64,000 nt of DNA, taken from contig CAXXHG010000046.1 of the NCBI GenBank assembly GCA_963666315.2, positions 107,803 through 171,802 of the forward strand. Direction: 5' to 3'. A program made the translations under genes and the position numbers. Source of the DNA: Candidatus Binatia bacterium. GTDB taxonomy: Bacteria; Desulfobacterota; Binatia; Bin18. Below are positions 7,562-41,316 of the stretch, in pieces (position 1 is the stretch's first letter; every line of letters starts with the position of its first letter). The notes below the pieces were generated by a model, which did not search any database, was not told where the DNA came from, and worked only from the letters and a program-made list of their open reading frames with translations.

Positions 7562-7675
7562 CGTTTCCCTCCTATTTAGAAAAACCCTATTGCGTAATAC
7601 AAGTAACGTTACCGTGCCCAAACAAATTGTATTATGCAACTCCACTTCTCAAAACCGAAAGGCAGGATTCACACC

Positions 7676-9559
7676 ATGCTGAAGCAGCTGTCAAAAATAC
7701 AGGCCGTACTCCTTCCTCTCTCGTTCTTTCTATTTATAGGCACCGAAACCTGGGCGTCGCGTGATGGCGAAACGATCTACAATGGAGAGTGCGCGACCTG
7801 TCATACGAGTGGCGCGGAGCGGATGCCAACGTTGCAAACTTTGAAAGCTATGCCGACTGAATCCATTGTCCAATCCTTAGAATCCGGCACCATGCGGATC
7901 ATTGGCACCTTTAATCTCAACGGGCCGGAACGTGTTGCCGTTGCTGAGTACATCACTGGCAAAACGTACGATCCTAATTGGAATGCTCAGCAGCAAAATA
8001 CATGTACTGACCAAAGCTGGCCGCGCGCAAAAGCTGAAAACACTTTTATCGAACCACACTGGAACGGCTGGGGCAACGGCCTAGAGAATAGGCGTTTCCA
8101 GAATGCCGAGTCTGCCAAACTCAGCCTCAACGATGTGAAAAAGCTTGAACTGCAATGGGCGTTTGCTTTCCCTGGCGAAACCATTGCCGAATCGCAACCG
8201 ACCGTCGTGGGAGGGCGGATCTTCGTTGGCAGTCGAAGCGGCGTGGTGTATTCACTAGACGCCAAAACCGCGTGCATCCACTGGACCTATCAAGCCGACG
8301 GACCGGTGAAAAATTCAGTCCTTATTGGTGAAGCCACAGTTGGCAGTGCACAGCAGCTGGTCGCCTACTTTGGCGATCTTGGCGGCAACGCCTATGCAGT
8401 CAATGCACAAGACGGACGCCTGCTATGGCGCAAGCGAGTCGACGATCACCCAGCTGCGCGCATTATGGGTAGTTTTCAGTTGATCGGGAATCAGCTTATT
8501 GTCCCGGTGACTTCTCTTGAGTCCACCCTTGTTGCAAAGGTTGCTGCCACTTGCTGTACATTCCGTGGCAGCGTCGTGTCCTATGACGCGAGCAGTGGCG
8601 AACAACGCTGGAAGCGATACACCATCGACCAGGAACCCGCAAAGGTCGGGGAGAATGCCAACGGCGCGGACATCTATGGACCTGCTGGTGCCACGGTGTG
8701 GACGGCACCGACTTTTGATGCCAAGAAGCGCTTGCTGTATATCGGTACGGGCGAGAATTCCGTCAACCCGCCGACAACAACGAGTGACGCTGTGCTTGCC
8801 GTCAACGTTGACACCTCGGATGTCGTGTGGACCTACTAGGGTTTGAGCGGAGATGCCTGGAATATGTCCTGTGGGACGGAGGACAAAGTCAATTGTCCTC
8901 AAGACGCCGGCCCTGACTATGACATGGGCAGTTCGCCGAGCTTATCCACGCTCGCAAATGGGAAGCGCGTGCTGATTGCAACCCAAAAGTCGGGAGTAGT
9001 GCATGCCCTGGACCCCGATGACAATGGGAAACTGCTGTGGCAGCGACAAGTCGCCCAAGGCGGTATTCTGGGCGGGATCGAATGGGGGCCGGCGACTGAT
9101 GGTAAAAACATCTACGTAGCCATTGCCGACATTAGCTGGGACAGTGAAGACCTGCTCGACCCCGCTTTGGCCCTGAACCCCAATGCAGGCGGTGGCCTGG
9201 TAGCGCTCGACCTTGCAGACGGACACGTGGTGTGGGAAGCGCCTGCGATCACCTGTGGGGACCGCCCGCAGTGCAGCCCAGCCCAAACAGCGGCCGTGAC
9301 TGCGATCCCGGGTGTCGTGTTCGCCGGTTCGATCAGTGGTCATTTGCGTGCGTTCGACACGCGGGACGGTAGGGTGCTCTGGACATACGACACCGCGCGC
9401 ACGTACCAAACCGTGAATAAAGCCAAGGGCAAGGGCGGTGCGCTCGATGCCACAGGCCCAGTAGTGGTCGACGGCTGGATGTACGTTGTCTCCGGCTACA
9501 GCAAATGGGGCGGGCTACCAGGCAACGTCCTGCTTGCCTTTGCTCCGGCCAAGGAGTAG
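7676..9559 (+). pseudogene. PQQ-dependent quinohemoprotein dehydrogenase (polyvinyl-alcohol-dehydrogenase-like), interrupted by an in-frame TAG
   Basis: Signal peptide, c-type haem motif CATCH, then PQQ beta-propeller repeats; ORFs 7634..8839 and 8843..9559 share a frame and are separated only by TAG 8837-8839 (VVWTY*GLSGDAWN). Confidence 0.75.
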
Positions 9560-9770: not shown

Positions 9771-10910
9771 ATGAAGTTCGGTGTCTTTCTCCCTAACGGC
9801 AGTAATGGCTATATTATGAGCAAGGCGATTACGCCGTATATGCCGACGTGGGAGCTGAACAGAGATATTACCCTTGAAGCGGAGCGCTTCGGGTTTGATT
9901 TCGTCTTATCCATGATAAAATTTCGCGGGTTCGGTGGCGAGACAGGGTATTGGGATGGGTGCCTGGAGTCGTTTTCGCTTACCTCAGCTTTAGCCACAGT
10001 AACGAAGCGGATCGGATTGATTCCGACTGCGCCGCTCCTAGCGCTTCATCCTGCCTATGTGGCTCGGACAATGGCAACGCTGGACGACATTAGCGGTGGT
10101 CGTGTCGCGCTCAATATTGTCACGGGATGGAATAAGCCCGAGTATGCCCAGATGGGTCTGTGGCGCGGTGATGAGTATTACGAGCAACGCTATGCGTATG
10201 CGCTCGACTACGTACACGTACTACGAACCCTCTGGAGAGACGGGACAATGACTCACCACAGTCCGTACTTTGATCTGGACGACTGCCAGTGTTTGCCCAC
10301 GCCCACGCACGAGATTCCCCTCGTTTCCGCGGGGCAGTCGAGTGCTGGCCAAGATTTTGTCTCTCGGATTGGTGGACACAGTTTTGCGATGGTTGCCCCC
10401 GACCGGCTGCATGCTATCGCCTCCGGCCTCAAGCAAGCGGGAGCCAAGTACGGTACGCGGGTGGGCATCTACGGATTGTTTCAAATTGTCGCAGCAGAAA
10501 CCGACGACCAAGCCTGGCAGACGGCCGCAGATATCGTGGCCGGAGGCGATATAGAAGCAATCAAGTCGCTGGTTTATTCCGCAAGTCTGGATACGGTCAA
10601 GGGTGGCACCTCGGGCCAGTTCCGGAATGAAGACGCTGGCGCTGATGAAGACTTGCTGGCCGGGGACATTGAGGCCGGGAATATGGTTTTTATGAATGTG
10701 CCCGTCCTGGTGGGCTCATATGAGACGATCGCCCGAAAGATCGACAATATTTCCAAGGATCAGAACATTGAGGGTATGTTATTCACCTGGCCGGACTGGG
10801 TCGCAGGGATTCAAACTTTTGGCGATCGTATATTACCGCTGCTCAACTGTCGGAAAGATTGGGATGGTGCAACCATGGGAGACCTACGGACACTCCGAGC
10901 CGACTTCTGA
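9771..10910 (+). CDS. LLM-class flavin-dependent monooxygenase, RutA-like
   Basis: MKFGVFLPNGSNGYIMS...PYMPTWELN...FDFVLSMIKFRGFGGETGYW...LESFSL...GGRVALNIVTGWNKPEYAQMGLW tracks E. coli RutA (as recalled) along its whole length. Confidence 0.7.
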   Translation: MKFGVFLPNGSNGYIMSKAITPYMPTWELNRDITLEAERFGFDFVLSMIKFRGFGGETGYWDGCLESFSLTSALATVTKRIGLIPTAPLLALHPAYVARTMATLDDISGGRVALNIVTGWNKPEYAQMGLWRGDEYYEQRYAYALDYVHVLRTLWRDGTMTHHSPYFDLDDCQCLPTPTHEIPLVSAGQSSAGQDFVSRIGGHSFAMVAPDRLHAIASGLKQAGAKYGTRVGIYGLFQIVAAETDDQAWQTAADIVAGGDIEAIKSLVYSASLDTVKGGTSGQFRNEDAGADEDLLAGDIEAGNMVFMNVPVLVGSYETIARKIDNISKDQNIEGMLFTWPDWVAGIQTFGDRILPLLNCRKDWDGATMGDLRTLRADF

Positions 10911-10950
10911 ATCATTCTCCTCTTATCCATCGATTCAAAAGGAAAAAACC

Positions 10951-12553
10951 ATGCAAAAATCGACGCGCGGAGCCCCAGGTATGACGGCGCAGGAAGATCA
11001 TACCGGCAATGGCCAAGCACCACATCAGTCCAAGGATACACAGCCAAGAGTCGTACGCGAGCCGCCAACGGGCAAGGAATTTCTGGAAGGGCTGCGCGAC
11101 GGGCGCGTCATCTATTTTGATGGTGAGTTAGTCAAAGATGTCACCACCCATCCGGCCTTTGCCACCAGCGCCCGTTCGTATGCCCGCATGTACGACACGC
11201 TGCATGACCCAGAGAAGTATGATGTGTTGACCTACGTAACTGAGCGAGGCGCCCGTTCACATAAGTTCTACAAGCTGCCACGTACTCACCAAGACCTCTT
11301 CGAGGCGCGGGATGCGATCGCCGAGTGGGCACGACTACAAGGCCGCGTTAGTCGGGACCCTGGCCTGTGACGTAGACTTCTACGGTGAGTACGCTCCGAA
11401 CGTACAGCGTTGGTATGAAAAGATCGCCGATGAGGTGATGTTCGTCAATCTGAGTCTGGTCAATCCAGCTGGCGACCGTTCAAAGCCACCGGCTGAGCAG
11501 CGCGATGTCTACATGCACGTCGTTAAAGAGCGAGACGATGGCATTGTTGTTCGTGTTGCTCGCATGGTCTCCACTGGGGCCGCCTTCAGCCATGTCGCCT
11601 ATATGAGCCAGTATATCCAGCCGGCGGGACTGGCTGAGAACGAAGAAGACTTCGCGATCGGCTTCTTCGTGCCCTTCAATGTCCCAGGCCTCACGTTCAT
11701 GGGCCGGTACTCCCACGAATATCTGGCTAAAAAGATCGGCTCTCCTTTTGACTACCCGCTCTCCAGCCGGTTTGACGAGTCTGATCTGAGTATCGTGCTC
11801 GACGACGTGTTTATCCCCTGGGAAGATGTGACTGTGTACCGCAACCCTGCGGTTGTGAACGGTCTCTTCCCGCGAGGCTTTGCCCGGCGGTTTGCCTTCC
11901 ACGCTGCTGCACGGACTGCAGTCAAGCTCGATTTTATCTGCGGCCTGTTCCTCCAGGCGACAGAGATGCAGCAGAAGACCGGCTTCCGCGAGGTACAAGC
12001 GGTGATCGGCGAGTTACTCGGCATGCGGCACAATATCTGGGCCCTCTCCACGGCAATGGCCGCCGATGCCGAGCCTGGGCCAGGGGGGTATTTGCTGCCA
12101 AAGACAGAGTACGCACTCCAGTGGCGCAATATTTACGGCGACACCTTTAGCCGGGCTCGGACCATGTTTCACAATCTGCTGTCCGGCAACTTGATCCAGA
12201 TTCCTTCTTCGGCTCAGGACTTCAAGAATCCAGACAGTCGACCATTACTTGACCGTTACTGGAAAGGCGCGACCGCCACGGCGGAGGAACGGGTGAAGCT
12301 GTTGCGCGTGATCTGGGATATGTTTTTGACAGAGTTCGCTGGCCGGACAGAGGCCCACGAACGCAACTTCGCCGGCGGCTACGAAGCGAATCGGGTCGAG
12401 ACATACCAAGCGGCAGAGCATTCGGGCCTGAATTCCAAGATGAAAGCCATGGTCGACGAATGCATGAGTCACTACGATCTCGACGGCTGGACGGATTCTA
12501 CGTGGGCAGACGTGCCCTGGTCGACCTCGGATTCAAAACCAGATTCAGAATAG
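10951..12553 (+). pseudogene. 4-hydroxyphenylacetate 3-monooxygenase oxygenase-component (HpaB) family gene, frameshifted
   Basis: N-terminal part in the frame of ORF 10696..11370 (..GRVIYFDGELVKDVTTHPAF..AIAEWARL) and the rest in ORF 11312..12553 (..DYKAALVGTLACDVDFYG..); the frame change/deletion lies near 11325-11345. Confidence 0.75.
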
Positions 12554-17192: not shown

Positions 17193-20100
17193 ATGACGTT
17201 CGATGAGGTATTGGATCAGGTCCGCGACTTATTGCAGCAACGCGGGCGGGTGACCTATCGGTCACTCAAGCTGCGCTTTCAGCTGGACGATGAAATGCTC
17301 GCAGGTGTGAGCGAAGAGCTCATCGAAGCCGAGCGGGCGGCACGGGACGATAATGGGAAAGTCCTCGTCTGGACCGGCGGCGATGAAGCAGCCGCTACGC
17401 CAAGTGATACTCCACCCCTTACACCAACTTCCCCGGTGAAATCCTTGAAGCTGGAAGCTGAGCGGCGACAGCTGACGGTCATGTTCTGTGACTTGGTCAG
17501 CTCGACAGCCCTTTCGGAGCAACTCGACCCCGAAGAGCTACGGGAGATAGTGCGCGCCTACCAACAAACCAGTGCAAAAGTCATTGAACGCTACGAGGGT
17601 TATATCGCCCAATATCTGGGCGACGGCATACTTGTGTACTTCGGTTACCCGACTGCTCATGAAGATGATGCCGCGGGAGCCGCACGGGCCGGGTTGGAAA
17701 TTGTTGCTGCATTACAAAAGCGAAACGTAGGGGCGACCGGCCGGTCGCCCCTACAAGTACGTATCGGTATCCATACGGGTCCAGTTGTTGTTGGTGCGAT
17801 GGGTGGAGGCGACAGGCAAGAACAGCTGGCCATAGGTGAAACACCGAACATTGCCGCCCGGGTCCAAGGGCAAGCCGAGCCGGATACGGTCGTCATCAGT
17901 GCAACCACATATCAGCTGATACATGGATCGTTCGCCTGTGAAGACCAGGGACCCCAGACACTAAAAGGAATCAGTACTCCACTGTCGCTCTATCGGGTTA
18001 CGGAAGAGCGGGCCGTCCAAAGCCGCTTTGAGGCGACGGTTCAAAAGGGTGTAGAGGGCTTATCAGCATTGGTCGGCCGCGAGGAGGAGATCCAGTTCCT
18101 ACACGAGCACTGGCAGCGTTCCTGCACAGGGGAAGGTCAGGCCGTGCTGGTAAGTGGGGAGCCCGGCATTGGCAAATCACGGCTCATGCAAGAACTCAAG
18201 GAGAGAGTTGCCAAGGATGCAGGCAGATGTATTGAGTTTCACTGTTCTCCCTATCACACCAACAGCGCCCTGCATCCAGTCATTGAGCATCTGCAACAAC
18301 GACTGCAGTTTGAGCGGGATGACACGGATGAGACCAAGCTGGAAAAACTCTAACACGCGTTCGCCTCTAATCGCTTTGCGAAAACTGATCCCCTGTCTCT
18401 TTCCCTGCTCGCAGCGCTGTTATCACTGCCGCAACCTGAGGACTCTCCTCCACTGGCCTATAGTCCTCAAAAGCAGAAAGAGAAGACTTACGAGACGCTT
18501 GGGCGCTGGCTCGTGGAGGAAGCCGAGGACACTGCCGTATGCTGCCTGTGGGAAGACCTGCACTGGGCCGACCCGTCAACGCTTGAACTGCTGGCCCTCT
18601 ACCTGGACCAAGTTCCGACTGCGCGCATGTTGGCCATGCTCGTCTTCCGTCCGGAATTTACACCCCCGTGGACGATCCGGTCGCACATGACCCAATTCAC
18701 ACTGAGCCGCTTGGGACAGCCGCACGTGGTAGCGATAATTGAACGCGTGACGGGGGGTAAAGCACTGCCAAACGAGGTCGTGCAGCAAATCGCGGCTAAG
18801 ACCGATGGGGTGCCGCTGTTTGTGGAGGAGTTGACCAAGACAGTGCTGGAATCTGACATCGTCCGGGCCGTCAACGGTCACTATGAACTAACAGGTCCGG
18901 TGTCCGCTTTGAGTATTCCCGTCACCTTACAAGACTCGCTCATGGCCCGGTTGGATAGGCTGCCACTGGCCAAAGGGGTGGCGCAATTGGGGGCAACGAT
19001 AGGCCGAGAGTTTAACTATGAACTCCTCCACGCTACAGAGTTACCTGCCGAGGAGGAGCTGCAACAAGGTCTCGAACAATTAGTCCAGGCCGAGTTGGTT
19101 TATCAGCGCGGCTACCTGCCCGATGCTCAGTACACGTTTAAGCATGCGCTGATTCAGGACACAGCGTATCAGTCTTTATTGAAACGCACCCGCCAGCAGT
19201 ACCACCGTCAGATTGCCGAAGTCATGGAGCAGCAGTTTGCCGAGCGGGTAAGCGCGCAGCCGGAGCTGCTAGCGCACCATTACACCGAGGCCCAGCTGAT
19301 TGAGCAGGCGCTGCCGTATTGGCTACAAGCCGGGCAGCAGGCCACGCAGCGGTTTGCCAACACCGAAGCTATCCAGCACTTGGACAAAGGTGTCGCGCTC
19401 CTCCAGACTCTGCCCGACAGCCCTGAGCGGGCGCAGCACGAGCTGCCGTTTCATATGGCGTTACAGGCGTCGCTCTTTACCACGACCGGATGGGCCTCTC
19501 CCGAGCTGGGCCGGAGCATGGAACGGGCGTACACCCTGTCTCAGCAGGTTGGCGAGCCCCGGCAGATTTTTGATGTGTTGATGGGGCTGTGCCCATTTCA
19601 TATGGGCGGTCAATCTGAGCTGCGGACAAGCCTAGAAGTGGCCGAACAGATGCTGCGCCTGGCCCAGGGGCAGGACGACGCCACCCTCATGCAGAGAGCC
19701 CATTTGATGGTGGCGAATACGCTATTCTATATGGGTAACCTCTCCACGACGCAGATACACCTTGCGCAGGGGCTGGCCCTTGGCGACGCCGTGCAGGACG
19801 GTTTTATCAAGCAGCTCGGGGCGGACGCGCGGATGGTTCTGCTATCCTACGTCGCGCTGACCCTCTGGGTACAGGGGTTTCCCGAGCAGGCGTTGCAGCG
19901 GAGTACAGAAGCTATAACCCAGGCGCAGGAACTGGGGCACCCCTTCAACTCGGTGATGGGGCTCGAGCTGGCTACGCTGCTCCATGTATTACGTCGCGAG
20001 GCGCAATCGGCCCAAGAGCGAGCTGAGGCGGCTATGACTCTTGCGACGGAGCACGGGTTCCCAATGTACGTGGCCTGGAGCTCTATCCACCACGGCTGGG

Positions 20101-20669
20101 CCGTCGGAGAGCAGGGAGCCCCTGAGGAAGGGAGCGCACTGTTCAAGGAGGCACTCTCCCTCTACCAGGCTCCAGGGATAAAGGGATGGATACCGTTTTA
20201 TCTGGGACTCTTGGCGCAATTAGACGGGCAGGGGGGGCGCGCCGAGGAGGGCTTGTCCGTGTTGGCCGAGGCTCGCGAGCTCAGCACGCAACGAGGGGAC
20301 TGCTGGAGTGAGGCAGAGTTGTATCGGCTGACCGGCGAGTTGACATTACAAAAGTTCAAAGCCCGTCCTGAGCAAAGTCGAAGGATTCAAAGTTCAGAGC
20401 CTGTCCTGAGCGGAGTCGAAGGGATCAATGGCGAAGAAGAAGCTGAAGGCCATTTTCTCAAGGCCATTGAAATTGCCCAAAAGCAAGAAGCCAAATCCTG
20501 GGAACTGCGCGCCGCCACGAGCCTTGCTCATCTGTGGCAGCAACAAGGCAAGAAGCAAGAAGCCCTCGATTTACTCGCTCCATTCTACAATTGGTTTACC
20601 GAAGGCTTTGACACGCCGGACTTGAAAGACGCCAAAGCGTTGTTGGATGAACTAATGGAGAGGCAGTAA
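17193..20669 (+). pseudogene. class III adenylate/guanylate cyclase - AAA/STAND ATPase - TPR protein with one in-frame TAA
   Basis: Cyclase core ERRQLTVMFCDLVSST..YLGDGILVYFGYP; P-loop GEPGIGKS; EDLHWAD and a TPR-like C-terminal region; ORFs 17193..18353 and 18513..20669 share a frame, and the stretch between them is open apart from TAA 18351-18353. Confidence 0.8.
20355..20423 (+). repeat. two tandem units of a short dispersed repeat inserted in frame in the cyclase/STAND gene
   Basis: TTCAAAG-CCCGTCCTGAGC-AAA-GTCGAAGGA / TTCAAAGTTCAG-AGCCTGTCCTGAGC-GGA-GTCGAAGGG; absent from the paralogue at the equivalent place. Confidence 0.7.
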
Positions 20670-28428: not shown

Positions 28429-30048
28429 ATGAATGCCGTACAAGAATTCCAGACATCAGAAGCATTAACATTCGACAATCGATTCACCCGCGAACTGCCG
28501 GTCGATCCTGAAACCGAAAACTATCGCCGGCAGGTCACGCAAGCGTGTTACTCGCGTGTACAGCCCAGGAAAGTCACTCAGCCCCGGCTGGTCGCTTACG
28601 CGTGGGATGTTGCCCAGGAACTGAATCTTACGCCGGCGTTTTGCGAATCAGACGATTTCCCACACATCTTTTCGGGCAACCGTTTGCTGGCAGGTATGGA
28701 TCCCTACGCCACCTGTTACGGCGGCCACCAGTTCGGCAACTGGGCCGGGCAGCTCGGAGACGGCCGGGCCATCAACCTGGGCGAGATAGTCAATCGGGAC
28801 GGCAAGCGGTGGGCATTGCAACTCAAAGGCGCCGGCCCTACGCCGTATTCACGAACGGCCGACGGTTTGGCCGTCCTCCGCTCGTCGCTGCGCGAGTTCT
28901 TGTGTAGCGAGGCCATGCATCATCTCGGTGTCCCTACTACACGCGCGTTAAGCCTGGTGTCGACGGGCGAGCAGGTCGTCCGGGATATGTTTTACAATGG
29001 CAACCCCAAGCCTGAGCCAGGAGCTATTGTGTGTCGGGTCGCGCCATCATTTACACGCTTCGGGAATTTTCAGCTATTTGCTGCGCGCGGAGAGATCGAC
29101 GTGTTGAAACAACTGGTCGATTATACCATACGCACCGACTTCTCCCATTTGGGCGAACCATCGCGCGACACTTACCCGGTCTGGTTCGAGGAAGTCTGCC
29201 GCACAACGGCACAGATGATCGTACACTGGCTGCGCGTCGGCTTCGTCCACGGTGTGATGAACACGGACAATATGTCTATCCTCGGCCTCACCATAGACTA
29301 CGGCCCGTATGGTTGGCTGGAAAATTACGATACCAACTGGACGCCGAACACCACCGACGCGGCCGGCCACCGGTATGCCTTCGGCAAGCAGCCACACATC
29401 GCGCATTGGAATCTCGTCCAGCTTGCCAATGCCATCTATCCACTGATTGAACAGACTGAACCGTTGGAAGAAGTGTTGAACAGCTATGCAAAAGAATTTG
29501 AGCACGGCTGGCAATCCATGATGGCCCAAAAACTGGGGCTGCGAGCCTTCAAGCCTGACCTGGACGATACCCTATTCTCGGGCCTACTTGAGATTCTACA
29601 ATTGGCCGAGACAGATATGACTATCTTCTATCGGCGGCTGGCTACAATTGATGTCAACGTCGAATCTCAGGACAAAACAGACGCTACCGCTCTCATAGAA
29701 CCTGTGTTGGACGCCTACTACGTCCCGGAGCAATTAACGCAAGACACAACGATGCGCGTCACTAATTGGCTGCGCCGCTACCAAGAACGCGTGAGAGAAG
29801 ATGGCACGGATAACGAGACGAGACGCAAACGAATGAACGCGGTCAACCCGAAATATGTACTGCGCAACTATCTGGCCCAGCTTGCCATCGACAAGGCCGA
29901 ACAGGACGACAATTCGATGCTGAACGAATTACTGGAACTCCTCCGCCATCCATATGATGAACAACCTGACAAAGAAGAATATGCGAAAAAACGTCCCGAC
30001 TGGGCGCGCCAACGTGCGGGCTGTTCGATGCTGTCGTGTAGTTCGTGA
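28429..30048 (+). CDS. selO: protein adenylyltransferase SelO (YdiU/UPF0061)
   Basis: CYGGHQFGNWAGQLGDGRAI..LKGAGPTPYSR..DG.AVLRSS.REFLCSEAM..LGVPTTRAL; ends ..MLSCSS. Confidence 0.9.
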   Translation: MNAVQEFQTSEALTFDNRFTRELPVDPETENYRRQVTQACYSRVQPRKVTQPRLVAYAWDVAQELNLTPAFCESDDFPHIFSGNRLLAGMDPYATCYGGHQFGNWAGQLGDGRAINLGEIVNRDGKRWALQLKGAGPTPYSRTADGLAVLRSSLREFLCSEAMHHLGVPTTRALSLVSTGEQVVRDMFYNGNPKPEPGAIVCRVAPSFTRFGNFQLFAARGEIDVLKQLVDYTIRTDFSHLGEPSRDTYPVWFEEVCRTTAQMIVHWLRVGFVHGVMNTDNMSILGLTIDYGPYGWLENYDTNWTPNTTDAAGHRYAFGKQPHIAHWNLVQLANAIYPLIEQTEPLEEVLNSYAKEFEHGWQSMMAQKLGLRAFKPDLDDTLFSGLLEILQLAETDMTIFYRRLATIDVNVESQDKTDATALIEPVLDAYYVPEQLTQDTTMRVTNWLRRYQERVREDGTDNETRRKRMNAVNPKYVLRNYLAQLAIDKAEQDDNSMLNELLELLRHPYDEQPDKEEYAKKRPDWARQRAGCSMLSCSS

Positions 30049-33175: not shown

Positions 33176-33418
33176 ATGACGGACAAAATGAATGTGGGCA
33201 TCTATCTGTTCGAAAATATGACCATGCTCGATGGCTTTGCGCCGCTGCAAATCCTGGCATACGTTGAACAGTTCAATACGTTCACATTTTCGCCAAACAA
33301 GGGACCGCTACAGTCCGATAGTGGCGCAGTCCTCACTCCGGATTATGATTTCGCATCGTGTCCACCACTCGATATTCTTGTCATGCCCGTGGAAACGGGA
33401 CCGTGGATTCACATTTGA
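33176..33418 (+). pseudogene. DJ-1/PfpI-family gene truncated by an IS insertion
   Basis: VGIYLFENMTMLDGFAPLQIL...DILVMP, then PGGNGT only after a 1-nt shift; the sequence then runs into the IS30 left end at 33406. Confidence 0.6.
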
Positions 33419-34414
33419 AGTGCAACAGTTGCTGTAAAAGAACCTCTGCAGGAGTGTGGTAGGCAAGACATTTTCGGGGTGTGTTGTTGTAGGCACGGAT
33501 GAGGGCATTAAAGCGGTTTGTGCGCAGGCTGGCGAGGGCGGTGTTGCGCGGGATGGTTCGCCGCATGCGACCAAGGGCATTTTCAATGCCGCCCTTCTGC
33601 CACGGCTTATGGGGGTCGCAAAAGAAGGTCTGAATGGCCAGGGGATGCAATTGGTAGTGCTGGACGAACTCGGTGCCATTATCGAAGGTCAGGGTTTGGC
33701 GCAAGCTTGGGGCAAGGGTTTGAGGAGCTGGACCATCAGCCGGGCCATGGGCTGAGCCGCCTTGCTGGGCGGTCGGGCCGCGAGGAGGACCGGGGAGTGG
33801 CGTTCATGCATGGTCAGGATGGCCGGTCCGTAGTGGGCGAATACCATCAGAGCGGCTTCCCAGTGGCCGGGGACCTGGCGGTCGGTGGCGCAGGCCGGGC
33901 GGTCCGAGAGGGGCCGGCGGGCTTTCGAAGAAGCGGACCGGAGAGCCGCGCTTCTTGCCGCGCCCGCCGCGTTTGGATTTGGCGCGGGGCAGATAGAGCC
34001 GCCAGCGGTCATCCTTGGTGCGCGCCAGTTGTGCATAGAGAAACCGGTAGATGCTCTCGTGGCTGATCACCTGGCTGCCGGGCTCAACCGCCAGCCGGCC
34101 GGCCACCTGCTCCGGCGCCCAGGGCCTTGACGCGCAGCTCCTTCTTGCGTTCCAGCTTCGAGCCGTTCCACCTCCGGGCGCAAGCCTGCTGATCGGCATA
34201 GGCCGGGGTGTAGGCCCCCTGGGTGCCCTGGTTCCGCTTTATCTCGCGAGCAATGGTCGATGGCGCGCGATCCACAGCTGCTGCAACTTGCCGGAGCGAG
34301 CTCCCCGCGCCTTGAAGACCGGCAATCTTCCACCGCTCCTCAACTGAAAGTTGTCTGTATCTCTTGTCCATGACAACACCTTATCCAGCTCGTGTTGCAC
34401 TTGGTTTGTGAATC
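33406..34414 (-). mobile_element. IS30-family insertion sequence with a decayed transposase
   Basis: Terminal inverted repeats GATTCACATTTGAAGTGCAACA (33406-) and TGTTGCACTTGGTTTGTGAATC (-34414); transposase split over four minus-strand ORFs (HTH ..STIAREIKRN; WAPEQVAGRL; GHWEAALM; TFDNGTEF; PWQKGGIEN). Confidence 0.8.
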
Positions 34415-35703: not shown

Positions 35704-36087
35704 CCTTCATCCTCCAGTGTTACTGAGTTAAACGATCACTATAGCAAGGATCATGTCTCAGAGACAAGGATTCCTGTCATAATTCTCGACAATCTCGATA
35801 ATTTCCTCCCGGGACTTGATCCTTGTATAATGATGTATGCATTCTTTCGGAACTGCTCACGCCGATTTTCTGCTGACGAGCCGGGCAAAACATTTGCCAA
35901 AACACCGGCATACAAAGACACTTCTGAATCATGCGCCAGCCACTTGCAGAGCAGAACCAAAAACTCTTGTAAACGCGGGCCAAGAAGTCCGAGCGAGGCA
36001 GGACGTAAGCCGCATTGAGTCGGAACCAAGTTTTCCGTATGGTGGGAAACCAACAGCACACGGTGATAGATAGTTGGAGGAAAGAAA

Positions 36088-36186: not shown

Positions 36187-36240
36187 AAGAGGCCAAGAGT
36201 AGGCTAGGTAGGCAACACAGGAAGAGGGGAACCCCAAAGC

Positions 36241-37281
36241 ATGAAAGGAAGTATTGTGACACGGTCAGCATGGACGAAAAACGTCGGTCTCGCTTTCACC
36301 TTTCTGGCGGGGATTGCGGTCGCGCCCAGCATACTCCAGGCAGAGGCTACAAGCGCCGTCCTGGCAACGGTCGGCGAGAAGAGCATCAGCGAAGCCGACA
36401 TCGCCAAGCAGATAAAAGGTCAGATGCTACGGCTGGACAACCAGATCTATGCGCTGAAAAAGAAAGCCATCGATACCATTATCAATAATCATCTCATGGC
36501 TGGGGAGGCCAAGAAGCGAGGTATCACGCGCCAACAGCTTACCAAACAGGAGGTGACGGACAAGGTCGCAGCCGTGACAGACGCAGAGGTCACTGCCTAT
36601 TATACTAAGAACAAAGCGCGGCTGCGTGGAAAAAAACTGGAAGAAGCCCGAGATCAGATCAAACAAACACTCCAAAGCCAAAAGCAGCAACAACGGCAGC
36701 GAGCATTTACGGCCGAGCTACGCAAGACGGCCGCAATCGACATGAAGATCAGCCCTCCGGTTGTTGAGGTACCGATTGCCGGCGCACCGACCAAAGGTCC
36801 GGAGAACGCACCGATTACGCTCGTTGAGTTTTCCGACTTTCAATGACCTTACTGCGCCCGAGTGCAGTCTGCACTCACCCAAATTCAAGAGAACTATAAA
36901 GATCAGGTCAAAATCGTTTTCAAAGATTTTCCCTTAACCCGCATTCACGCTCAGGCGTATAAAGCCGCAGAGGCCGCCCGTTGCGCCGGCGATCAGGACA
37001 AGTATTGGGAATATCACGATATCCTGTTTGCCAATGCCCGCGCGCTCCAACCCGATAAGCTCAAGCAGTACGCTGCAGACCTCAAACTCGACACCGCCCA
37101 GTTTGACGCTTGCTTAGACAACAATGCCTATACCGGAGCGGTCAGCAAAGATTTGGCGCTGGGCACCCGGCTCGGGGTAACCGGTACGCCGGCTTTCTTT
37201 GTGAACGGGCGTTTTCTATCCGGAGCCCAGCCCTATTCGGCTTTTGCCGAATTGATCGACGAAGCGCTGGCAGCGCAGTAA
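36241..37281 (+). CDS. DsbA-family thiol:disulfide oxidoreductase, candidate selenoprotein (UxxC; TGA 36844-36846 read as Sec)
   Basis: ORFs 36241..36846 and 36862..37281 share a frame; the junction reads VEFSDFQ-TGA-PYC, i.e. the canonical FSDFQCPYC active site; a hairpin follows; the signal-anchor N-terminus and DsbA C-terminal part (GVTGTPAFFVNG) are intact. Confidence 0.65.
36860..36876 (+). promoter_or_regulatory. candidate bacterial SECIS hairpin
   Basis: GAGTGCA-GTC-TGCACTC, perfect 7-bp stem starting 13 nt after the TGA; apex UGCAGUCUGCA resembles the E. coli fdhF SECIS apex (recalled as GGUUGCAGGUCUGCACC). Confidence 0.55.
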
Positions 37282-37314: not shown

Positions 37315-37569
37315 TTAGGTTTCCTCCCCTATTTTCTGGGGCATACGTCGTGGCAGCCCCCCACAACGTTGGAGGGCTAAGGCGTCAAGCCGTTCTTGGA
37401 ATGTTCTTTTTTCAGCCGGGGTCCGGCAGGGCAAGGCACCCAGCTCTTGGCGTTCTTCAACCCTCAATGCTTGCCATTCTTTTAAGTGCAGTTTGATGCC
37501 AGCCTGATCAAGCTTGTCGCGGACAGAGCGAGGGATCCAGTCGAGATCAGCTTTCTCCATAGCCGTCAC
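37315..37569 (-). CDS. nitrate-reductase-associated protein family (TIGR02664-like) small protein
   Basis: IPRSVRDKLDQAGIKLHLKEWQALRVEERQEL..LPCRTPAE follows the pattern I recall for this family (IP..VR.KLD..GIKL.L..W......ER..L...PC.T..E). Confidence 0.5.
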   Translation of the reverse strand: MTAMEKADLDWIPRSVRDKLDQAGIKLHLKEWQALRVEERQELGALPCRTPAEKRTFQERLDALALQRCGGLPRRMPQKIGEET

Positions 37570-37717
37570 CTTTCAGAATACTGTCAGCATACTGATATTT
37601 TTGGCCCTACCCGCTTTCTTGAAACAGCGCAAGCCAGTCTCTCTACCCATCCGTTTTTTTACCCTTGCGTCTACCCCTCTTGGCGATACAGAAAAGGGTA
37701 TGGTAAGGCTTCAGTCC

Positions 37718-38941
37718 ATGTCAGCAAAAAAGGCAAAAGCAGAACGTCGAAAGGCGACGCAACAAGACGGCGCCCACCAAGCACCAACGCGAGTCCCGAG
37801 CTGGCCTTTACTCGCGATTCGCATTCTTGGGGCGCTGGGACTCGGTATCGGCATATATCTCTCGCTCCTCCACTATCAGGCCGGAGCAGAGGGAGGCATT
37901 GATTCAGCTTTTTGCGGTACGGGGACAACGGTCAACTGTAGTCTGGTCTTGGGCAGTGCCTATGCCCAGTTGTTCGGAGTCCCGGTAGCACTGTGGGCGA
38001 CCGCAGCCTACGCCGCTCTGCTCGCCACTACGTTGCTCTCCTCGACCGGGCTGAGCCTCTTTTTGTGCGGCTGGATATTCGTCTTCTCGGCGTATATGGC
38101 CGGACTTTCATTCATCAAAATCGGGGCGACCTGCCCTCTGTGTATGAGCCTGTATCTGATCAATATTGGGCTCTTGATAAGTACCTTTGTTTTAGGACGT
38201 GCAAACGGGGTACTCACCACAACTCGCCTTGCTTATACCTTAACCGCGTTCGCCGTCGTCCTGCTTGGGATAGGACTCACGCAAACCAAGGAGGCGGCAA
38301 CCGTAGTAACGCCACAAGAATTTATTGCGCCGGCGCCGGCTGACATGGACATGAGTTTCGTTCGCTATTATCATGCACAACCTGCCGTCGTCCTACGGGG
38401 TGCCGAGCGTCATGTCGAAGGGCCGTCTGACGCCGTGCTGACCATTCACGAGTTCGTGGACTTTCGCTGTCCTCAGTGTGCCCGAGCACGGAGCGTGCTC
38501 TCACGATTCCAGCATGCCAACCCCAACGACGTCCGTATTGTGTTTCGCCATTATCCATTAGATCAGCAGTGTAATACGGCGATGAAAGACCAGGTTCATC
38601 CCGGTGCGTGCACGGCGGCTATTGCGGCTGAATGCGCAGGAGAACAAGGGAAATTCTGGGAGTATGCGGATTTATTGTTCGCGGACCAAAAGAAATACAA
38701 ACGAGCAGATTTTGAAGAACATGCCAGAACCGCCGGGCTGGATTCTGAGCCGTTTTCCACGTGTTTGGACGAACGACGGACTGAAAGCCTGGTCAAGAAC
38801 GACATACAAGAAGCCCGCCGCATTGAGATCAAAGCCACACCAACCCTGGTCATCAACGGTCGCGTGATCTCGGGTATCCCGCCGATTAAGAAGCTGGCAA
38901 GTCTTGTGACGTTTCAGAACAAGCAATCGGCAACGCAGTAA
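37718..38941 (+). CDS. VKOR (vitamin K epoxide reductase family) - DsbA/thioredoxin fusion protein
   Basis: VKOR loop cysteines FCGTGTTVNC and TM CxxC (CPLC); C-terminal DsbA-like domain with FVDFRCPQC; start could also be ATG 37700. Confidence 0.8.
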   Translation: MSAKKAKAERRKATQQDGAHQAPTRVPSWPLLAIRILGALGLGIGIYLSLLHYQAGAEGGIDSAFCGTGTTVNCSLVLGSAYAQLFGVPVALWATAAYAALLATTLLSSTGLSLFLCGWIFVFSAYMAGLSFIKIGATCPLCMSLYLINIGLLISTFVLGRANGVLTTTRLAYTLTAFAVVLLGIGLTQTKEAATVVTPQEFIAPAPADMDMSFVRYYHAQPAVVLRGAERHVEGPSDAVLTIHEFVDFRCPQCARARSVLSRFQHANPNDVRIVFRHYPLDQQCNTAMKDQVHPGACTAAIAAECAGEQGKFWEYADLLFADQKKYKRADFEEHARTAGLDSEPFSTCLDERRTESLVKNDIQEARRIEIKATPTLVINGRVISGIPPIKKLASLVTFQNKQSATQ

Positions 38942-40272: not shown

Positions 40273-41316
40273 ATGATTTCGGTTGGTTACCTTCCTGACA
40301 CCCATGGAGGGCCCTATCAACAGCCGGAACCGAGCCCCCAGCGCTCGGCCGATTTTGCTACCCAACTGCTTAAAGAAGCCGAACAAGCGGAAAAGTCCGG
40401 CTTTGACGCTCTCTTTGTTCCGGAACGACATGCCCGCACGGAATGCATGTTTCCTTCGACGCTGACACTGATGACCGCTTTTGCGACTCGCACCGAGCGG
40501 GTCAAAATCGGCTCCTACATCATTATGCCCCCGCTCTATAACCCAGTCCATTTAGCCGAACAGGCCGCCATGATTGACGTCCTCTCACGAGGCCGGCTGA
40601 TTATGGGCGTGGGTGTAGGCTATCACGCTGACTACTTCAACCACTTCGGCGTACCCATTAAGGAGCGCGAAGGCCGCTTCGAAGAATGTCTCGAAATCAT
40701 GAACAAGGCCTGGACAGCCGAGGGGCCGACCGAACACCACGGCAGGTATTACGACTATGATGCCATCCACGTCACGCCCAAGCCGTATCAAAAACCCCGT
40801 CCCCCCATCTGGATCGGCGCCTTTGGCCCCAAGTCGATAGCACGTGCCGGTCGGCTCGGCGATGTGTGGTGTATGGCTCCATTTTTCGACAGCTTTGATA
40901 CCCTCAAAGCCCAGCTTGAGATATATCAGGAGGCAGCCATCAAGGCGGGCAAAAAACCGTGTATTGCATTGCTGCGCGACGGTTGGCTGGCGTCCAGCAT
41001 GGAAGAAGCCGAAGAGACGTTTGGCCGCCTGTGGGTTGAGGAGTGTAAGTTTTATCTGCGGATGGGCATGCTCACACCAAGCAAAGATTTTCAGTCTGAG
41101 TCGGACTTCACCCTAGACAAAGTACGCAAATATATGGTGATAGGCACCAAAGACGACTGGCTCGAACACCTCGGTCTATGGCAGAAAGAACTCAGCGTTG
41201 AGCACTTTGTTCTCCGCTGCCGGGTGCCGCTTGGGCCTCAGCCGGAGCAGGCGCTGGAATGTATCCAGCGGCTGGGGGAAGAGGTCGTGCCGCACATCAA
41301 GACACTGGCAAGTTAA
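40273..41316 (+). CDS. LLM-class flavin-dependent oxidoreductase
   Basis: ..SGFDALFVPERH.., IDVLSRGRLIMGVGVGY are luciferase-like monooxygenase motifs. Confidence 0.8.
   Translation: MISVGYLPDTHGGPYQQPEPSPQRSADFATQLLKEAEQAEKSGFDALFVPERHARTECMFPSTLTLMTAFATRTERVKIGSYIIMPPLYNPVHLAEQAAMIDVLSRGRLIMGVGVGYHADYFNHFGVPIKEREGRFEECLEIMNKAWTAEGPTEHHGRYYDYDAIHVTPKPYQKPRPPIWIGAFGPKSIARAGRLGDVWCMAPFFDSFDTLKAQLEIYQEAAIKAGKKPCIALLRDGWLASSMEEAEETFGRLWVEECKFYLRMGMLTPSKDFQSESDFTLDKVRKYMVIGTKDDWLEHLGLWQKELSVEHFVLRCRVPLGPQPEQALECIQRLGEEVVPHIKTLAS

What the first reader, a model, noticed from the sequence alone, without database searches (positions are those of the whole stretch)
36241..37281. DsbA-family oxidoreductase with TGA at the first Cys of CxxC plus a fdhF-like hairpin: candidate UxxC selenoprotein
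ORFs 36241..36846 and 36862..37281 are in the same frame and are separated only by TGA 36844-36846. Read through, the junction is ...APITLVEFSDFQ-[TGA]-PYCARVQ.... The stop therefore sits exactly where DsbA proteins carry the nucleophilic Cys of FSDFQCPYC; the VKOR-DsbA gene 0.5 kb downstream has FVDFRCPQC at the equivalent site. Thirteen nt after the TGA there is a perfect hairpin GAGTGCA-GTC-TGCACTC (36860-36876). Its apex UGCAGUCUGCA is nearly the same as the apex of the E. coli fdhF SECIS as I remember it (GGUUGCAGGUCUGCACC, 11 nt after the UGA). Cys (TGC/TGT) to TGA needs a transversion, whereas the other nonsense codons in this window look like transitions at Gln/Trp/Arg codons. Both halves of the gene are otherwise intact. 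DsbA-like Sec proteins have been predicted computationally, but they are rare and poorly characterised.
Basis: partly seen in the sequence, partly recalled or inferred. Interest (0 to 1): 0.85.

Follow-up and report, generated by a model that had tools for sequence, protein, structure and literature searches.

The report
Selenocysteine DsbA-like periplasmic oxidoreductase gene
The apparent stop codon splitting this disulfide-bond enzyme gene is almost certainly a conserved selenocysteine codon with its own RNA signal, so this is one intact gene belonging to an already catalogued but biochemically unstudied selenoprotein family that gene callers routinely cut in two.

Summary

- ORF 36241..37281 is a single 346-codon gene. 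It has a signal peptide, a helical N-domain and a DsbA/BdbD-type thioredoxin domain. TGA 36844-46 sits at the nucleophilic position of the CxxC motif, giving U-P-Y-C.
- The TGA is kept in all 6 distinct orthologous sequences (86-94% aa identity). The downstream half is under purifying selection (dN/dS 0.03-0.37).
- The codons between the TGA and the spurious GTG start, which include the second active-site Cys, vary only synonymously.
- The hairpin at 36860-36876 meets every criterion of the published bacterial SECIS consensus and shows compensatory changes in relatives.
- Sec forms with this motif occur in at least 120 species genomes. Their downstream hairpins are far stronger than those of Cys forms (median -11.4 vs -6.2 kcal/mol, P = 7e-20).
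- The nearest Cys orthologue keeps a remnant SECIS-like hairpin.

UxxC "DsbA-like" and "DsbG-like" selenoproteins have been catalogued since 2004-2005. This is therefore a new member, perhaps a sub-family, of a known kind and not a new kind.

Sec-decoding genes could not be checked in this genome. No selenium incorporation has been shown.

The parts
36241..37281 (+). Complete selenoprotein gene: 346 codons plus stop, with TGA at codon 202 read as Sec. Public gene calls split it into 201-aa and 139-aa products.
   Evidence: Orthologues have the same layout.
36241..36345 (+). Predicted Sec-pathway signal peptide (MKGSIVTRSAWTKNVGLAFTFLAGIAVAPSILQA|EA). There is no lipobox Cys.
   Evidence: Read from the sequence: basic n-region, hydrophobic core, LQA cleavage-type motif. 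This is inference. The N-terminal ~30 residues of the orthologue model have low confidence.
36346..36780 (+). Helical N-terminal domain. It gives weak or faint SurA_N-type Pfam hits in the relatives' precomputed tables, which suggests a chaperone-like or scaffold module.
   Evidence: Precomputed PF13624/PF13623 on homologues. The AF2 model of orthologue P0002 has long helices at 46-87 and 128-159, pLDDT about 90. My Pfam scan of the window protein gave no SurA_N hit at E<=0.001.
36790..37278 (+). DsbA/BdbD-type thioredoxin-fold domain containing the U-P-Y-C redox motif.
   Evidence: Pfam PF13462 and PF01323. PDB sequence hits 4pwo, 3gyk, 3eu3. Foldseek TM 0.86-0.88 normalised to 3gyk and 3eu3.
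36844..36846 (+). In-frame TGA, the inferred selenocysteine codon, at the N-terminal nucleophilic position of the CxxC motif.
   Evidence: Conserved as TGA in all orthologues. It aligns with an invariant Cys in 57 Cys-form homologues. It sits at the N-terminus of helix alpha1 in the model of the Cys orthologue.
36853..36855 (+). TGC, the resolving Cys of the UxxC motif. It lies between the TGA and the spurious GTG start of the called 139-aa ORF.
   Evidence: It varies synonymously (TGC/TGT) among orthologues. It would be in neither product if the two ORFs were separate genes.
36860..36876 (+). bSECIS hairpin: 7-bp stem GAGUGCA/UGCACUC with a 3-nt apical loop GUC. There are 20 nt between the UGA and the loop.
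   Evidence: (-9.9 kcal/mol). Criteria taken from PMC13188914. Comparison with fdhF.
36219..36232 (+). Purine-rich Shine-Dalgarno-like stretch (AGGAAGAGGGGAAC) upstream of ATG 36241. No such element precedes GTG 36862.
37514..38941 (+). VKOR-DsbA fusion gene (CPQC motif), a DsbB-analogue quinone reductase. It is the likely re-oxidation partner and is syntenic in both Sec and Cys lineages. The true start is probably internal, because relatives are 403-413 aa.
   Evidence: translation. Pfam PF07884 + PF13462 in relatives.

Best explanation
36241..37281 is one gene for an exported (periplasmic) thiol:disulfide oxidoreductase. The first, nucleophilic residue of its DsbA-type CxxC motif is selenocysteine (U-P-Y-C).

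During translation, the hairpin 13 nt downstream (stem GAGUGCA/UGCACUC, loop GUC) acts as a bacterial SECIS. It recruits SelB-GTP-Sec-tRNA(Sec) to the ribosome when UGA 36844-46 is in the A site, so Sec is inserted instead of the chain terminating.

The mature protein has a helical N-domain plus a DsbA/BdbD fold. It would cycle between a selenenylsulfide (Se-S) form and a selenol/thiol form while exchanging disulfides with substrate proteins. The membrane VKOR-DsbA fusion encoded 0.5 kb downstream, a DsbB analogue, is the probable redox partner.

Shown here: the gene structure, conservation of the TGA, purifying selection across and after the TGA, conservation and covariation of the hairpin, its fit to the bSECIS consensus, the Sec/Cys orthologue pair, the fold, and the synteny.

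Inferred: actual Sec insertion, SelB dependence, export, the direction of the redox reaction (oxidase vs isomerase/reductase), and the partnership with VKOR.
For: 1. TGA at the same codon in 6 distinct orthologous sequences (86-94% aa identity, dS 0.14-0.63), several from independent assemblies. All sit in the same gene neighbourhood.
2. The downstream 144 codons have no stop and give dN/dS 0.03-0.37; the upstream part gives 0.11-0.28.
3. The five codons between the TGA and the called GTG start (P-Y-C-A-R) show three synonymous and no non-synonymous differences. They contain the conserved second Cys. There is no SD before that GTG.
4. The hairpin meets all bSECIS criteria: 3-nt loop, 7-bp stem, G then U at the start of the loop, 20 nt from the UGA, -9.9 kcal/mol.
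5. Covariation. In the window-type hairpin 98.4% of cells pair, and pair 21-29 occurs as G-C, U-A and A-U. In the sister RVGP type 95.5% pair, with two compensatory pairs. Registers slid by 1-3 nt drop to 13-64%.
6. With sequences selected by peptide only, 31 of 31 Sec forms have a 5-10 bp stem with a GUC-type loop at +21 to +23. Three of 4 Cys forms with matching peptides do not.
7. Comparing 73 Sec with 123 Cys sequences that share the motif, the best local hairpin has a median of -11.4 vs -6.2 kcal/mol (Mann-Whitney P = 7e-20) at equal GC.
8. The aligned residue is an invariant Cys in 57 homologues. Syntenic Cys orthologues exist, and one keeps a remnant SECIS-like hairpin, as described for Sec-to-Cys conversions in PMC1794560.
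9. TGA is an ordinary stop in this genome, closing 10 of 31 long frames.
10. UxxC DsbA-like and DsbG-like selenoproteins are established predicted families.
Against: - No selA, selB, selC or selD was seen, but only 64 kb of this genome and about 20-kb flanks of relatives could be read. The decoding machinery is therefore assumed.
- No Rfam family matches the hairpin.
- The whole-region MFE fold of the window sequence slightly prefers an alternative pairing (-10.0 vs -9.9 kcal/mol).
- In one orthologous lineage (L007-9) the closing A-U pair is lost, leaving a 6-bp stem and a 5-nt loop AGUCG.
- The hairpin differs from the fdhF SECIS: a 3-nt rather than a 4-nt loop, and no bulged U.
- The same contig carries three genuine nonsense-interrupted genes, so broken genes do occur here.
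- There is no experimental evidence of selenium incorporation for any member of this sub-family.
Confidence: 0.88

Rival explanations
1. Pseudogene: a nonsense mutation (TGY to TGA) inactivated a Cys-type DsbA gene, and the hairpin is coincidental.
For: The same contig has three real in-frame nonsense codons inside conserved domains: TAG 8837 in a PQQ dehydrogenase, TAA 18351 in a cyclase/AAA_16 protein, and TAG 41560 in an acyl-CoA dehydrogenase. There is also a degraded IS element and a DedA remnant next to the gene.
Against: The TGA is shared by 6 distinct orthologous sequences, and the downstream half is under purifying selection (dN/dS 0.03-0.37) with no further stops or frameshifts. By contrast, the acyl-CoA dehydrogenase TAG is absent from orthologues. 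The other nonsense codons are TAG or TAA, not TGA. The same TGA position, with an intact continuation, occurs in at least 120 species.
Confidence: 0.02
2. Two separate genes, as in the public gene calls: a 201-aa exported helical protein ending at TGA, and a 139-aa DsbA-fragment protein starting at GTG 36862, possibly made by termination-reinitiation.
For: Every public gene call for this locus and its relatives lists the two ORFs separately. GTG is a legal start codon.
Against: - The 139-aa product would begin inside the thioredoxin fold and would lack both redox residues.
- The conserved second Cys (36853-55) would lie in neither product, yet it changes only synonymously.
- No Shine-Dalgarno precedes the GTG.
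- All Cys-form orthologues are single fused proteins of 317-347 aa.
- The GTG is simply the Val codon of the conserved ARVQ peptide and forms part of the hairpin stem.
Confidence: 0.03
3. The UGA is recoded, but not as Sec. Either Cys is inserted by a SelB-dependent tRNA-Cys with a UCA anticodon (a case I recall from the literature but did not check here), or near-cognate read-through inserts Cys or Trp in the leaky UGA-C context. The product would then be an ordinary CxxC or WxxC protein.
For: Nothing here tests the identity of the inserted residue. The UGA is followed by C, which from general knowledge is a leaky context. No Sec machinery could be observed.
Against: A conserved, covarying SECIS-type hairpin that meets the SelB-type consensus is what canonical Sec insertion predicts. 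Sec/Cys pairs at exactly this catalytic position define many accepted selenoprotein families. Simple read-through would not need the hairpin and would be too inefficient for an essential catalytic residue.
Confidence: 0.05
4. Sequencing or assembly error at 36844-46. The contig name suggests a long-read assembly.
For: The contig is named ctgNNNN and carries several nonsense-interrupted genes.
Against: The same TGA appears in independent assemblies from different studies, samples and assemblers: ENA scaffolds, NCBI MAGs and a Logan assembly.
Confidence: 0.01

Closest known systems
"DsbA-like protein form 1" selenoprotein family (PF01323, UxxC), predicted in the Sargasso Sea selenoproteome by Zhang, Fomenko & Gladyshev 2005 and listed in the 2026 review (PMC1088965, PMC1794560, PMC13188914)
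   Same: DSBA-type thioredoxin fold. Sec replaces the first Cys of CxxC (UxxC). The UGA is followed by a stem-loop with G in the apical loop. Cys homologues are widespread. Everything is known only from bioinformatics.
   Different: The 2005 family was defined by COG2761 (FrnE-type DsbA). The window protein is Thioredoxin_4/BdbD-type (PF13462 scores higher than PF01323). It also carries a roughly 150-residue helical N-terminal domain and a signal peptide. I did not compare it directly with the review's reference sequence NIP15863.1, which was not available here.
"DsbG-like" selenoprotein, equal to NCBIfam NF041057 "Rcas_1661 family thioredoxin-like (seleno)lipoprotein" (cited in the 2026 review as its reference 12; COG1651)
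   Same: It is the best NCBIfam hit (E 1.1e-36 over residues 141-341). It has a UxxC motif, is exported, and is COG1651/BdbD-like.
   Different: The score of 126.7 bits is below the curated cutoff of 190. The window protein has no lipobox Cys, so it is not a lipoprotein. Its N-terminal domain is different.
E. coli fdhF SECIS, the experimentally characterised SelB-binding hairpin
   Same: A stem-loop directly downstream of the UGA inside the coding region. Shared core UGCA-G(G)UC-UGCAC. G then U in the apical loop. The loop starts 21 nt (fdhF) or 23 nt (window) from the U of UGA.
   Different: 3-nt loop GUC rather than 4-nt GGUC. No bulged U in the upper stem. A perfect 7-bp stem. No extended lower helix reaching back to the UGA. 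SelB binding is untested.
DsbA-VKOR disulfide-forming systems, and BdbD/BdbC of Bacillus
   Same: A Thioredoxin_4-type DsbA encoded near a VKOR homologue. Closest solved structures are C. diphtheriae DsbA/TsdA, Silicibacter 3GYK and B. subtilis BdbD.
   Different: Those proteins use Cys-x-x-Cys. Here the nucleophile is inferred to be Sec, and the VKOR is itself fused to a second (Cys) DsbA domain. No paper in the searchable library mentions selenocysteine together with DsbA and VKOR.

Membership tests
Bacterial selenoprotein gene (generic definition) | An in-frame UGA aligned with a conserved Cys of homologues (a Sec/Cys pair) | tested here: met
   TGA 36844-46 aligns with an invariant Cys in 57 homologues. 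Syntenic Cys orthologues are L132 and L134.
Bacterial selenoprotein gene (generic definition) | TGA-containing homologues in other organisms, with the coding region conserved on both sides of the TGA | tested here: met
   Six distinct orthologous sequences, with dN/dS 0.03-0.37 downstream. At least 120 species carry the motif with a 140-160-codon continuation.
Bacterial selenoprotein gene (generic definition) | A bSECIS element: 3-9 nt apical loop, 4-16 bp stem, G in the first two loop positions, 16-37 nt from the UGA to the loop, MFE <= -7.5 kcal/mol (PMC13188914) | tested here: met
   Loop GUC (3 nt), 7-bp stem, 20 nt spacing, -9.9 kcal/mol. Covariation. Sec-vs-Cys control. bSECISearch itself was not available.
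Bacterial selenoprotein gene (generic definition) | The genome encodes SelA, SelB, SelD and tRNA-Sec | not testable with these tools
   None were found in the 64-kb window or in about 1.86 Mb of fetched loci. The rest of the genome could not be read.
Bacterial selenoprotein gene (generic definition) | Selenium is actually incorporated at the UGA | not testable with these tools
   This needs 75Se labelling or mass spectrometry.
DsbA-like protein form 1 selenoprotein (PF01323, UxxC) | A PF01323 DSBA domain above Pfam's gathering score | tested here: met
   93.0 bits against a cutoff of 25.6, residues 193-339.
DsbA-like protein form 1 selenoprotein (PF01323, UxxC) | Redox motif UxxC, with Sec at the first position | tested here: met
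   U-P-Y-C at codons 202-205.
DsbA-like protein form 1 selenoprotein (PF01323, UxxC) | Orthology to the family's reference sequences (COG2761/FrnE-type; NIP15863.1) | not tested
The window protein looks BdbD/COG1651-type instead: PF13462 is the stronger Pfam hit, and FrnE structures rank low.
NF041057 Rcas_1661 family thioredoxin-like (seleno)lipoprotein ("DsbG-like" selenoprotein) | A score at or above the curated equivalog cutoff (190 bits) | tested here: not met
   126.7 bits.
NF041057 Rcas_1661 family thioredoxin-like (seleno)lipoprotein ("DsbG-like" selenoprotein) | A lipoprotein signal peptide with a lipobox Cys | tested here: not met
   There is no Cys in the first 200 residues. The signal peptide ends ...SILQA|EA.
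E. coli-type (fdhF) SECIS | A GGUC-type apical loop with G and U exposed, plus a bulged U in the upper stem (from established knowledge of the fdhF element) | tested here: inconclusive
   G-U is present in the loop and the core UGCA..UGCAC is shared, but the loop is 3 nt and there is no bulged U.

The most novel reading that the evidence does not exclude
In this uncultured, probably Binatia-related lineage, and more widely in at least 120 species across many phyla, oxidative protein folding in the cell envelope runs through a selenenylsulfide relay. A Sec-containing DsbA with a chaperone-like N-domain would be re-oxidised by a VKOR-DsbA fusion. Envelope disulfide formation would then depend on selenium, and would differ kinetically from the classical Cys-only DsbA/DsbB or DsbA/VKOR pathways. 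A still more unusual variant is that the UGA/SECIS pair is used to insert Cys rather than Sec.
Probability: 0.15. Interest if true: 0.6.

Novelty: new member of a known kind. Interest (0 to 1): 0.3.

Why it matters
1. Annotation. Every public gene call for this locus and its relatives splits the gene into a 201-aa protein with no strong Pfam match and a 139-aa "DSBA" fragment, so the active site is lost from the databases. The same error probably affects the UxxC DsbA-like genes found in at least 120 species genomes.
2. Biology. It places a selenoprotein in the envelope disulfide-bond machinery next to a VKOR-type re-oxidase. That combination is not discussed in the searchable literature. It gives a clean natural Sec/Cys orthologue pair in the same synteny, including one Cys form with a remnant SECIS-like hairpin. 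Such a pair could be used to ask what Sec buys a DsbA-type enzyme.
3. It is not a new principle. UxxC thioredoxin-fold selenoproteins, bSECIS hairpins and Sec/Cys interconversion are all established.

Tried and rejected
- Rfam, at gathering thresholds on the whole window and in permissive mode on 36780-36960, found no SECIS or other relevant family. The only hit was a meaningless snoRNA match at E = 4.9.
- ARAGORN on the window and 11 related loci found no tRNA, so no tRNA-Sec.
- tblastn with E. coli SelA, SelB and SelD against all 1.86 Mb of held DNA gave only two weak, non-specific hits in unrelated loci. Pfam on 30 window ORFs found no sel genes. SelO at 28429-30048 is not Sec machinery.
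- Organism identification was only approximate. Cluster look-ups gave no names. The nearest named relatives of a 751-aa anthranilate/aminodeoxychorismate synthase-like protein are Binatia, Tectomicrobia and 'Deltaproteobacteria' MAGs at about 74% identity. A literature search for Binatota plus selenocysteine returned one paper, which I did not open.
It was rerun with F fixed.
The Cys orthologue P0002 was modelled instead. Foldseek hits covered only the DsbA domain, so the N-domain assignment stays tentative.
- I considered a single covariation test across both hairpin types. I rejected it because the two types are one nucleotide out of register in the coding alignment, and tested them separately instead.
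- Genetic-code reassignment of UGA is rejected: TGA closes 10 of 31 long frames.
Full report
**Observation**

ORF 36241..36846 ends at TGA 36844-46. The same frame stays open for 144 more codons to TAA 37279-81. The junction reads ...APITLVEFSDFQ-TGA-PYCARVQSAL.... A perfect hairpin GAGTGCA-GTC-TGCACTC lies at 36860-36876, 13 nt after the TGA.

With the TGA read through, the 346-residue product matches Pfam Thioredoxin_4 (E 1.3e-32) and DSBA (E 2.7e-26) over residues 184-341, so the domain spans the TGA. The VKOR-DsbA gene downstream does carry FVDFRCPQC.

A hairpin of this quality is not expected by chance. The window has 33 perfect 7-bp hairpins with a G-leading 3-5 nt loop on both strands. 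That gives about 0.006 expected in the zone where a SECIS must start. This is the only in-frame TGA in the window flanked on both sides by recognisable homologous coding sequence.

**Orthologues**

A protein search returned full-length (306-347 aa) Cys-containing homologues at no more than 63% identity. All closer relatives (81-93% identity over the aligned N-terminal part) are about 201 aa and end at ...FSDFQ.

I fetched their DNA. This gave six distinct orthologous sequences, counting the window; several come from independent studies and assemblers. All share one neighbourhood: SLT/LysM, this gene, a Nitr_red_assoc gene, VKOR-DsbA, EthD, and a luciferase-like gene.

- Every one has TGA at the same codon and an intact 144-codon continuation.
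- Pairwise dS between them is 0.14-0.63.
- dN/dS is 0.03-0.37 downstream of the TGA and 0.11-0.28 upstream.
- The five codons between the TGA and the GTG that gene callers use as a start (P-Y-C-A-R) show only synonymous differences: CCT/CCG, TAC/TAT, TGC/TGT.
- Those codons include the second active-site Cys, which would belong to neither product if the ORFs were separate genes.
- No Shine-Dalgarno precedes that GTG, whereas ATG 36241 has GGAAGAGGGG upstream.

These results exclude a pseudogene, a sequencing error and a two-gene arrangement.

**The hairpin as a SECIS**

The published bacterial SECIS consensus (PMC13188914) sets four requirements. The window hairpin meets all of them.

| Criterion | Required | Window hairpin |
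|---|---|---|
| Apical loop | 3-9 nt | 3 nt (GUC) |
| Upper stem | 4-16 bp | 7 bp |
| UGA to loop | 16-37 nt | 20 nt |
| MFE | <= -7.5 kcal/mol | -9.9 kcal/mol |

GGUUGCAGGUCUGCACC starts 11 nt after the fdhF UGA. The two elements share the core UGCA-G(G)UC-UGCAC. The window element has a 3-nt instead of a 4-nt loop and no bulged U.

**Wider family and controls**

The hits come from Chloroflexota, Desulfobacterota, Acidobacteriota, Nitrospirota, Myxococcota, Rokubacteria, Binatia, Planctomycetota and other groups. Nearly all have 140-160 open codons after the TGA.

Sub-groups carry different hairpins, each with G/U in the loop: GUC at +22/23, GGUC at +25, CGUGA at +24, AGGU at +37.

I then selected sequences by peptide only (P[YF]C..V[QG][SP]). 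All 31 distinct Sec forms have a 5-10 bp stem and a GUC-type loop at +21 to +23. Three of four Cys forms with matching peptides have nothing comparable.

Formal pair counts:

- Window-type hairpin: 98.4% of cells pair, and pair 21-29 occurs as G-C, U-A and A-U. Here a synonymous change in the Val codon compensates an Ala/Glu/Val replacement.
- Sister RVGP-type hairpin: 95.5% pair, with two compensatory pairs.
- Sliding the register by 1-3 nt drops pairing to 13-64% in both.

As a negative control I ran the same motif with TGY instead of TGA. The best local hairpin had a median of -11.4 kcal/mol in 73 Sec sequences and -6.2 in 123 Cys sequences (Mann-Whitney P = 7e-20). GC content was equal, 0.559 vs 0.555.

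Positional Cys orthologues exist (L132, L134). L134 and the non-syntenic L133 lack the hairpin. L132, the closest Cys form, keeps CGAGUUCA-GUC-UGAACUCG after its TGC. That is a remnant SECIS-like structure of the kind reported for Sec-to-Cys conversions (PMC1794560).

**The protein**

- The N-terminus looks like a Sec-type signal peptide without a lipobox. This is an inference from the sequence.
- An AlphaFold model of the 59%-identical Cys orthologue P0002 has pLDDT 89.4 and pTM 0.78. It shows a helical N-domain with long helices at 46-87 and 128-159, followed by a thioredoxin/DsbA fold. The active-site Cys sits at the N-terminus of helix 198-213.
- The DsbA domain superposes on Silicibacter 3GYK, B. 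subtilis BdbD and C. diphtheriae DsbA/TsdA (TM 0.59-0.88 normalised to the target, RMSD about 2-3 Å).
- The adjacent VKOR-DsbA fusion, a DsbB analogue, is syntenic in both Sec and Cys lineages. It is the likely redox partner, but this is inferred.
- TGA is a normal stop here, closing 10 of 31 long frames, so there is no genome-wide reassignment.

**What could not be shown**

Neither the window nor any fetched DNA contains selA, selB, selD or tRNA-Sec.

The organism is an uncultured bacterium. Its closest named relatives, at about 74% identity for a 751-aa protein, are Binatia, Tectomicrobia and 'Deltaproteobacteria' MAGs. Orthologues lie on contigs of 632 kb and 7.09 Mb.

Incorporation of selenium, the direction of the redox reaction and the VKOR partnership are all untested.

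**Comparison with what is known**

UxxC "DsbA-like" (PF01323; 9 Sargasso Sea sequences in 2005) and "DsbG-like" (COG1651, NCBIfam NF041057) selenoproteins are standard entries in prokaryotic selenoprotein catalogues. They remain functionally uncharacterised (PMC1088965, PMC1794560, PMC13188914).

The window protein passes the Pfam DSBA threshold and has the UxxC motif. However, it scores only 126.7 bits against NF041057's cutoff of 190, it is not a lipoprotein, and it carries a distinct helical N-domain. I therefore file it as a new member, possibly a sub-family, of a known kind.

No paper in the searchable library combines selenocysteine, DsbA and VKOR.

**Verdict**

The remaining doubt is about the decoding machinery and the identity of the inserted residue. 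It is not novel in kind.

Its value lies in three things:

- It corrects a systematic split-gene annotation.
- It documents a widespread envelope selenoprotein next to VKOR.
- It offers a natural Sec/Cys orthologue pair, including a remnant SECIS-like hairpin, for experiments.

Interest is 0.3.

Noticed in passing
window 7634-9559 (+), stop at 8837-8839: A PQQ-dependent dehydrogenase with an N-terminal cytochrome c domain is interrupted by an in-frame TAG (..VVWTY-TAG-GLSGD..). The Pfam PQQ beta-propeller domain runs straight across the stop. It is a pseudogene or an assembly error, and it is not TGA.
   Followed up: partly
window 17193-20669 (+), stop at 18351-18353: A large adenylate/guanylate cyclase + AAA_16 + TPR protein of about 1158 codons is interrupted by an in-frame TAA inside the AAA_16 domain.
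   Followed up: partly
window 41401-42591 (+), stop at 41560-41562: An acyl-CoA dehydrogenase carries an in-frame TAG where orthologue L136 has AAG (Lys). Orthologues in L005 and L136 are intact at 396 aa. That makes three nonsense-interrupted genes in 64 kb, all TAG or TAA. This suggests either ongoing gene decay or systematic substitution errors in this assembly.
   Followed up: partly
window about 33300-34400 (-): Fragmented ORFs of what looks like an IS30-family transposase (the HTH_38 piece is called at 34084-34371), broken into several frames. Relatives have other genes at this position (ApbA, dCMP deaminase), so a decayed IS insertion seems likely.
   Followed up: no
window 35918-36007 (+): Only a 30-residue remnant (50% identity) survives of the DedA/VTT-domain gene that sits between the SLT/LysM gene and the DsbA gene in relative L001.
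   Followed up: partly
L132 3001-3954 (JGI 3300010938 Ga0137716_10000629): This is the closest Cys-form orthologue (63% identity, same synteny). It has TGC at the Sec position but keeps a perfect 8-bp hairpin with the same GUC loop at the same distance. That is a remnant SECIS-like hairpin and implies a recent Sec-to-Cys conversion.
   Followed up: partly
L074 (2961 and 3531, +) and L086 (1336 and 2014, -): Two genomes, a Nitrospirota MAG and a Myxococcales MAG, carry two tandem UxxC DsbA-like genes, each with its own TGA and hairpin.
   Followed up: no
window 10696-12553 (+): The HpaB-like 4-hydroxyphenylacetate 3-hydroxylase ORF (11312-12553) matches the HpaB_N profile only from position 102. 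An overlapping ORF (10696-11370) in another frame may hold the missing N-terminus, so a frameshift is possible.
   Followed up: no
window 28429-30048 (+): A SelO (PF02696) gene lies 6 kb upstream. Despite the name, from general knowledge bacterial SelO is a pseudokinase-fold AMPylase and is not part of the Sec-insertion machinery. It should not be counted as evidence.
   Followed up: no
L007 6274-7316: In relative L007 the luciferase-like monooxygenase, which is 347 aa in the window at 40273-41316, is called as two pieces of 142 and 205 aa. Split genes therefore also occur in sister assemblies.
   Followed up: no
window 37514-38941 (+): The VKOR-DsbA ORF is 475 aa from its first TTG, but relatives are called at 403-413 aa, so the real start is probably internal. 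The small Nitr_red_assoc gene (37315-37569, -) overlaps the 5' extension.
   Followed up: no
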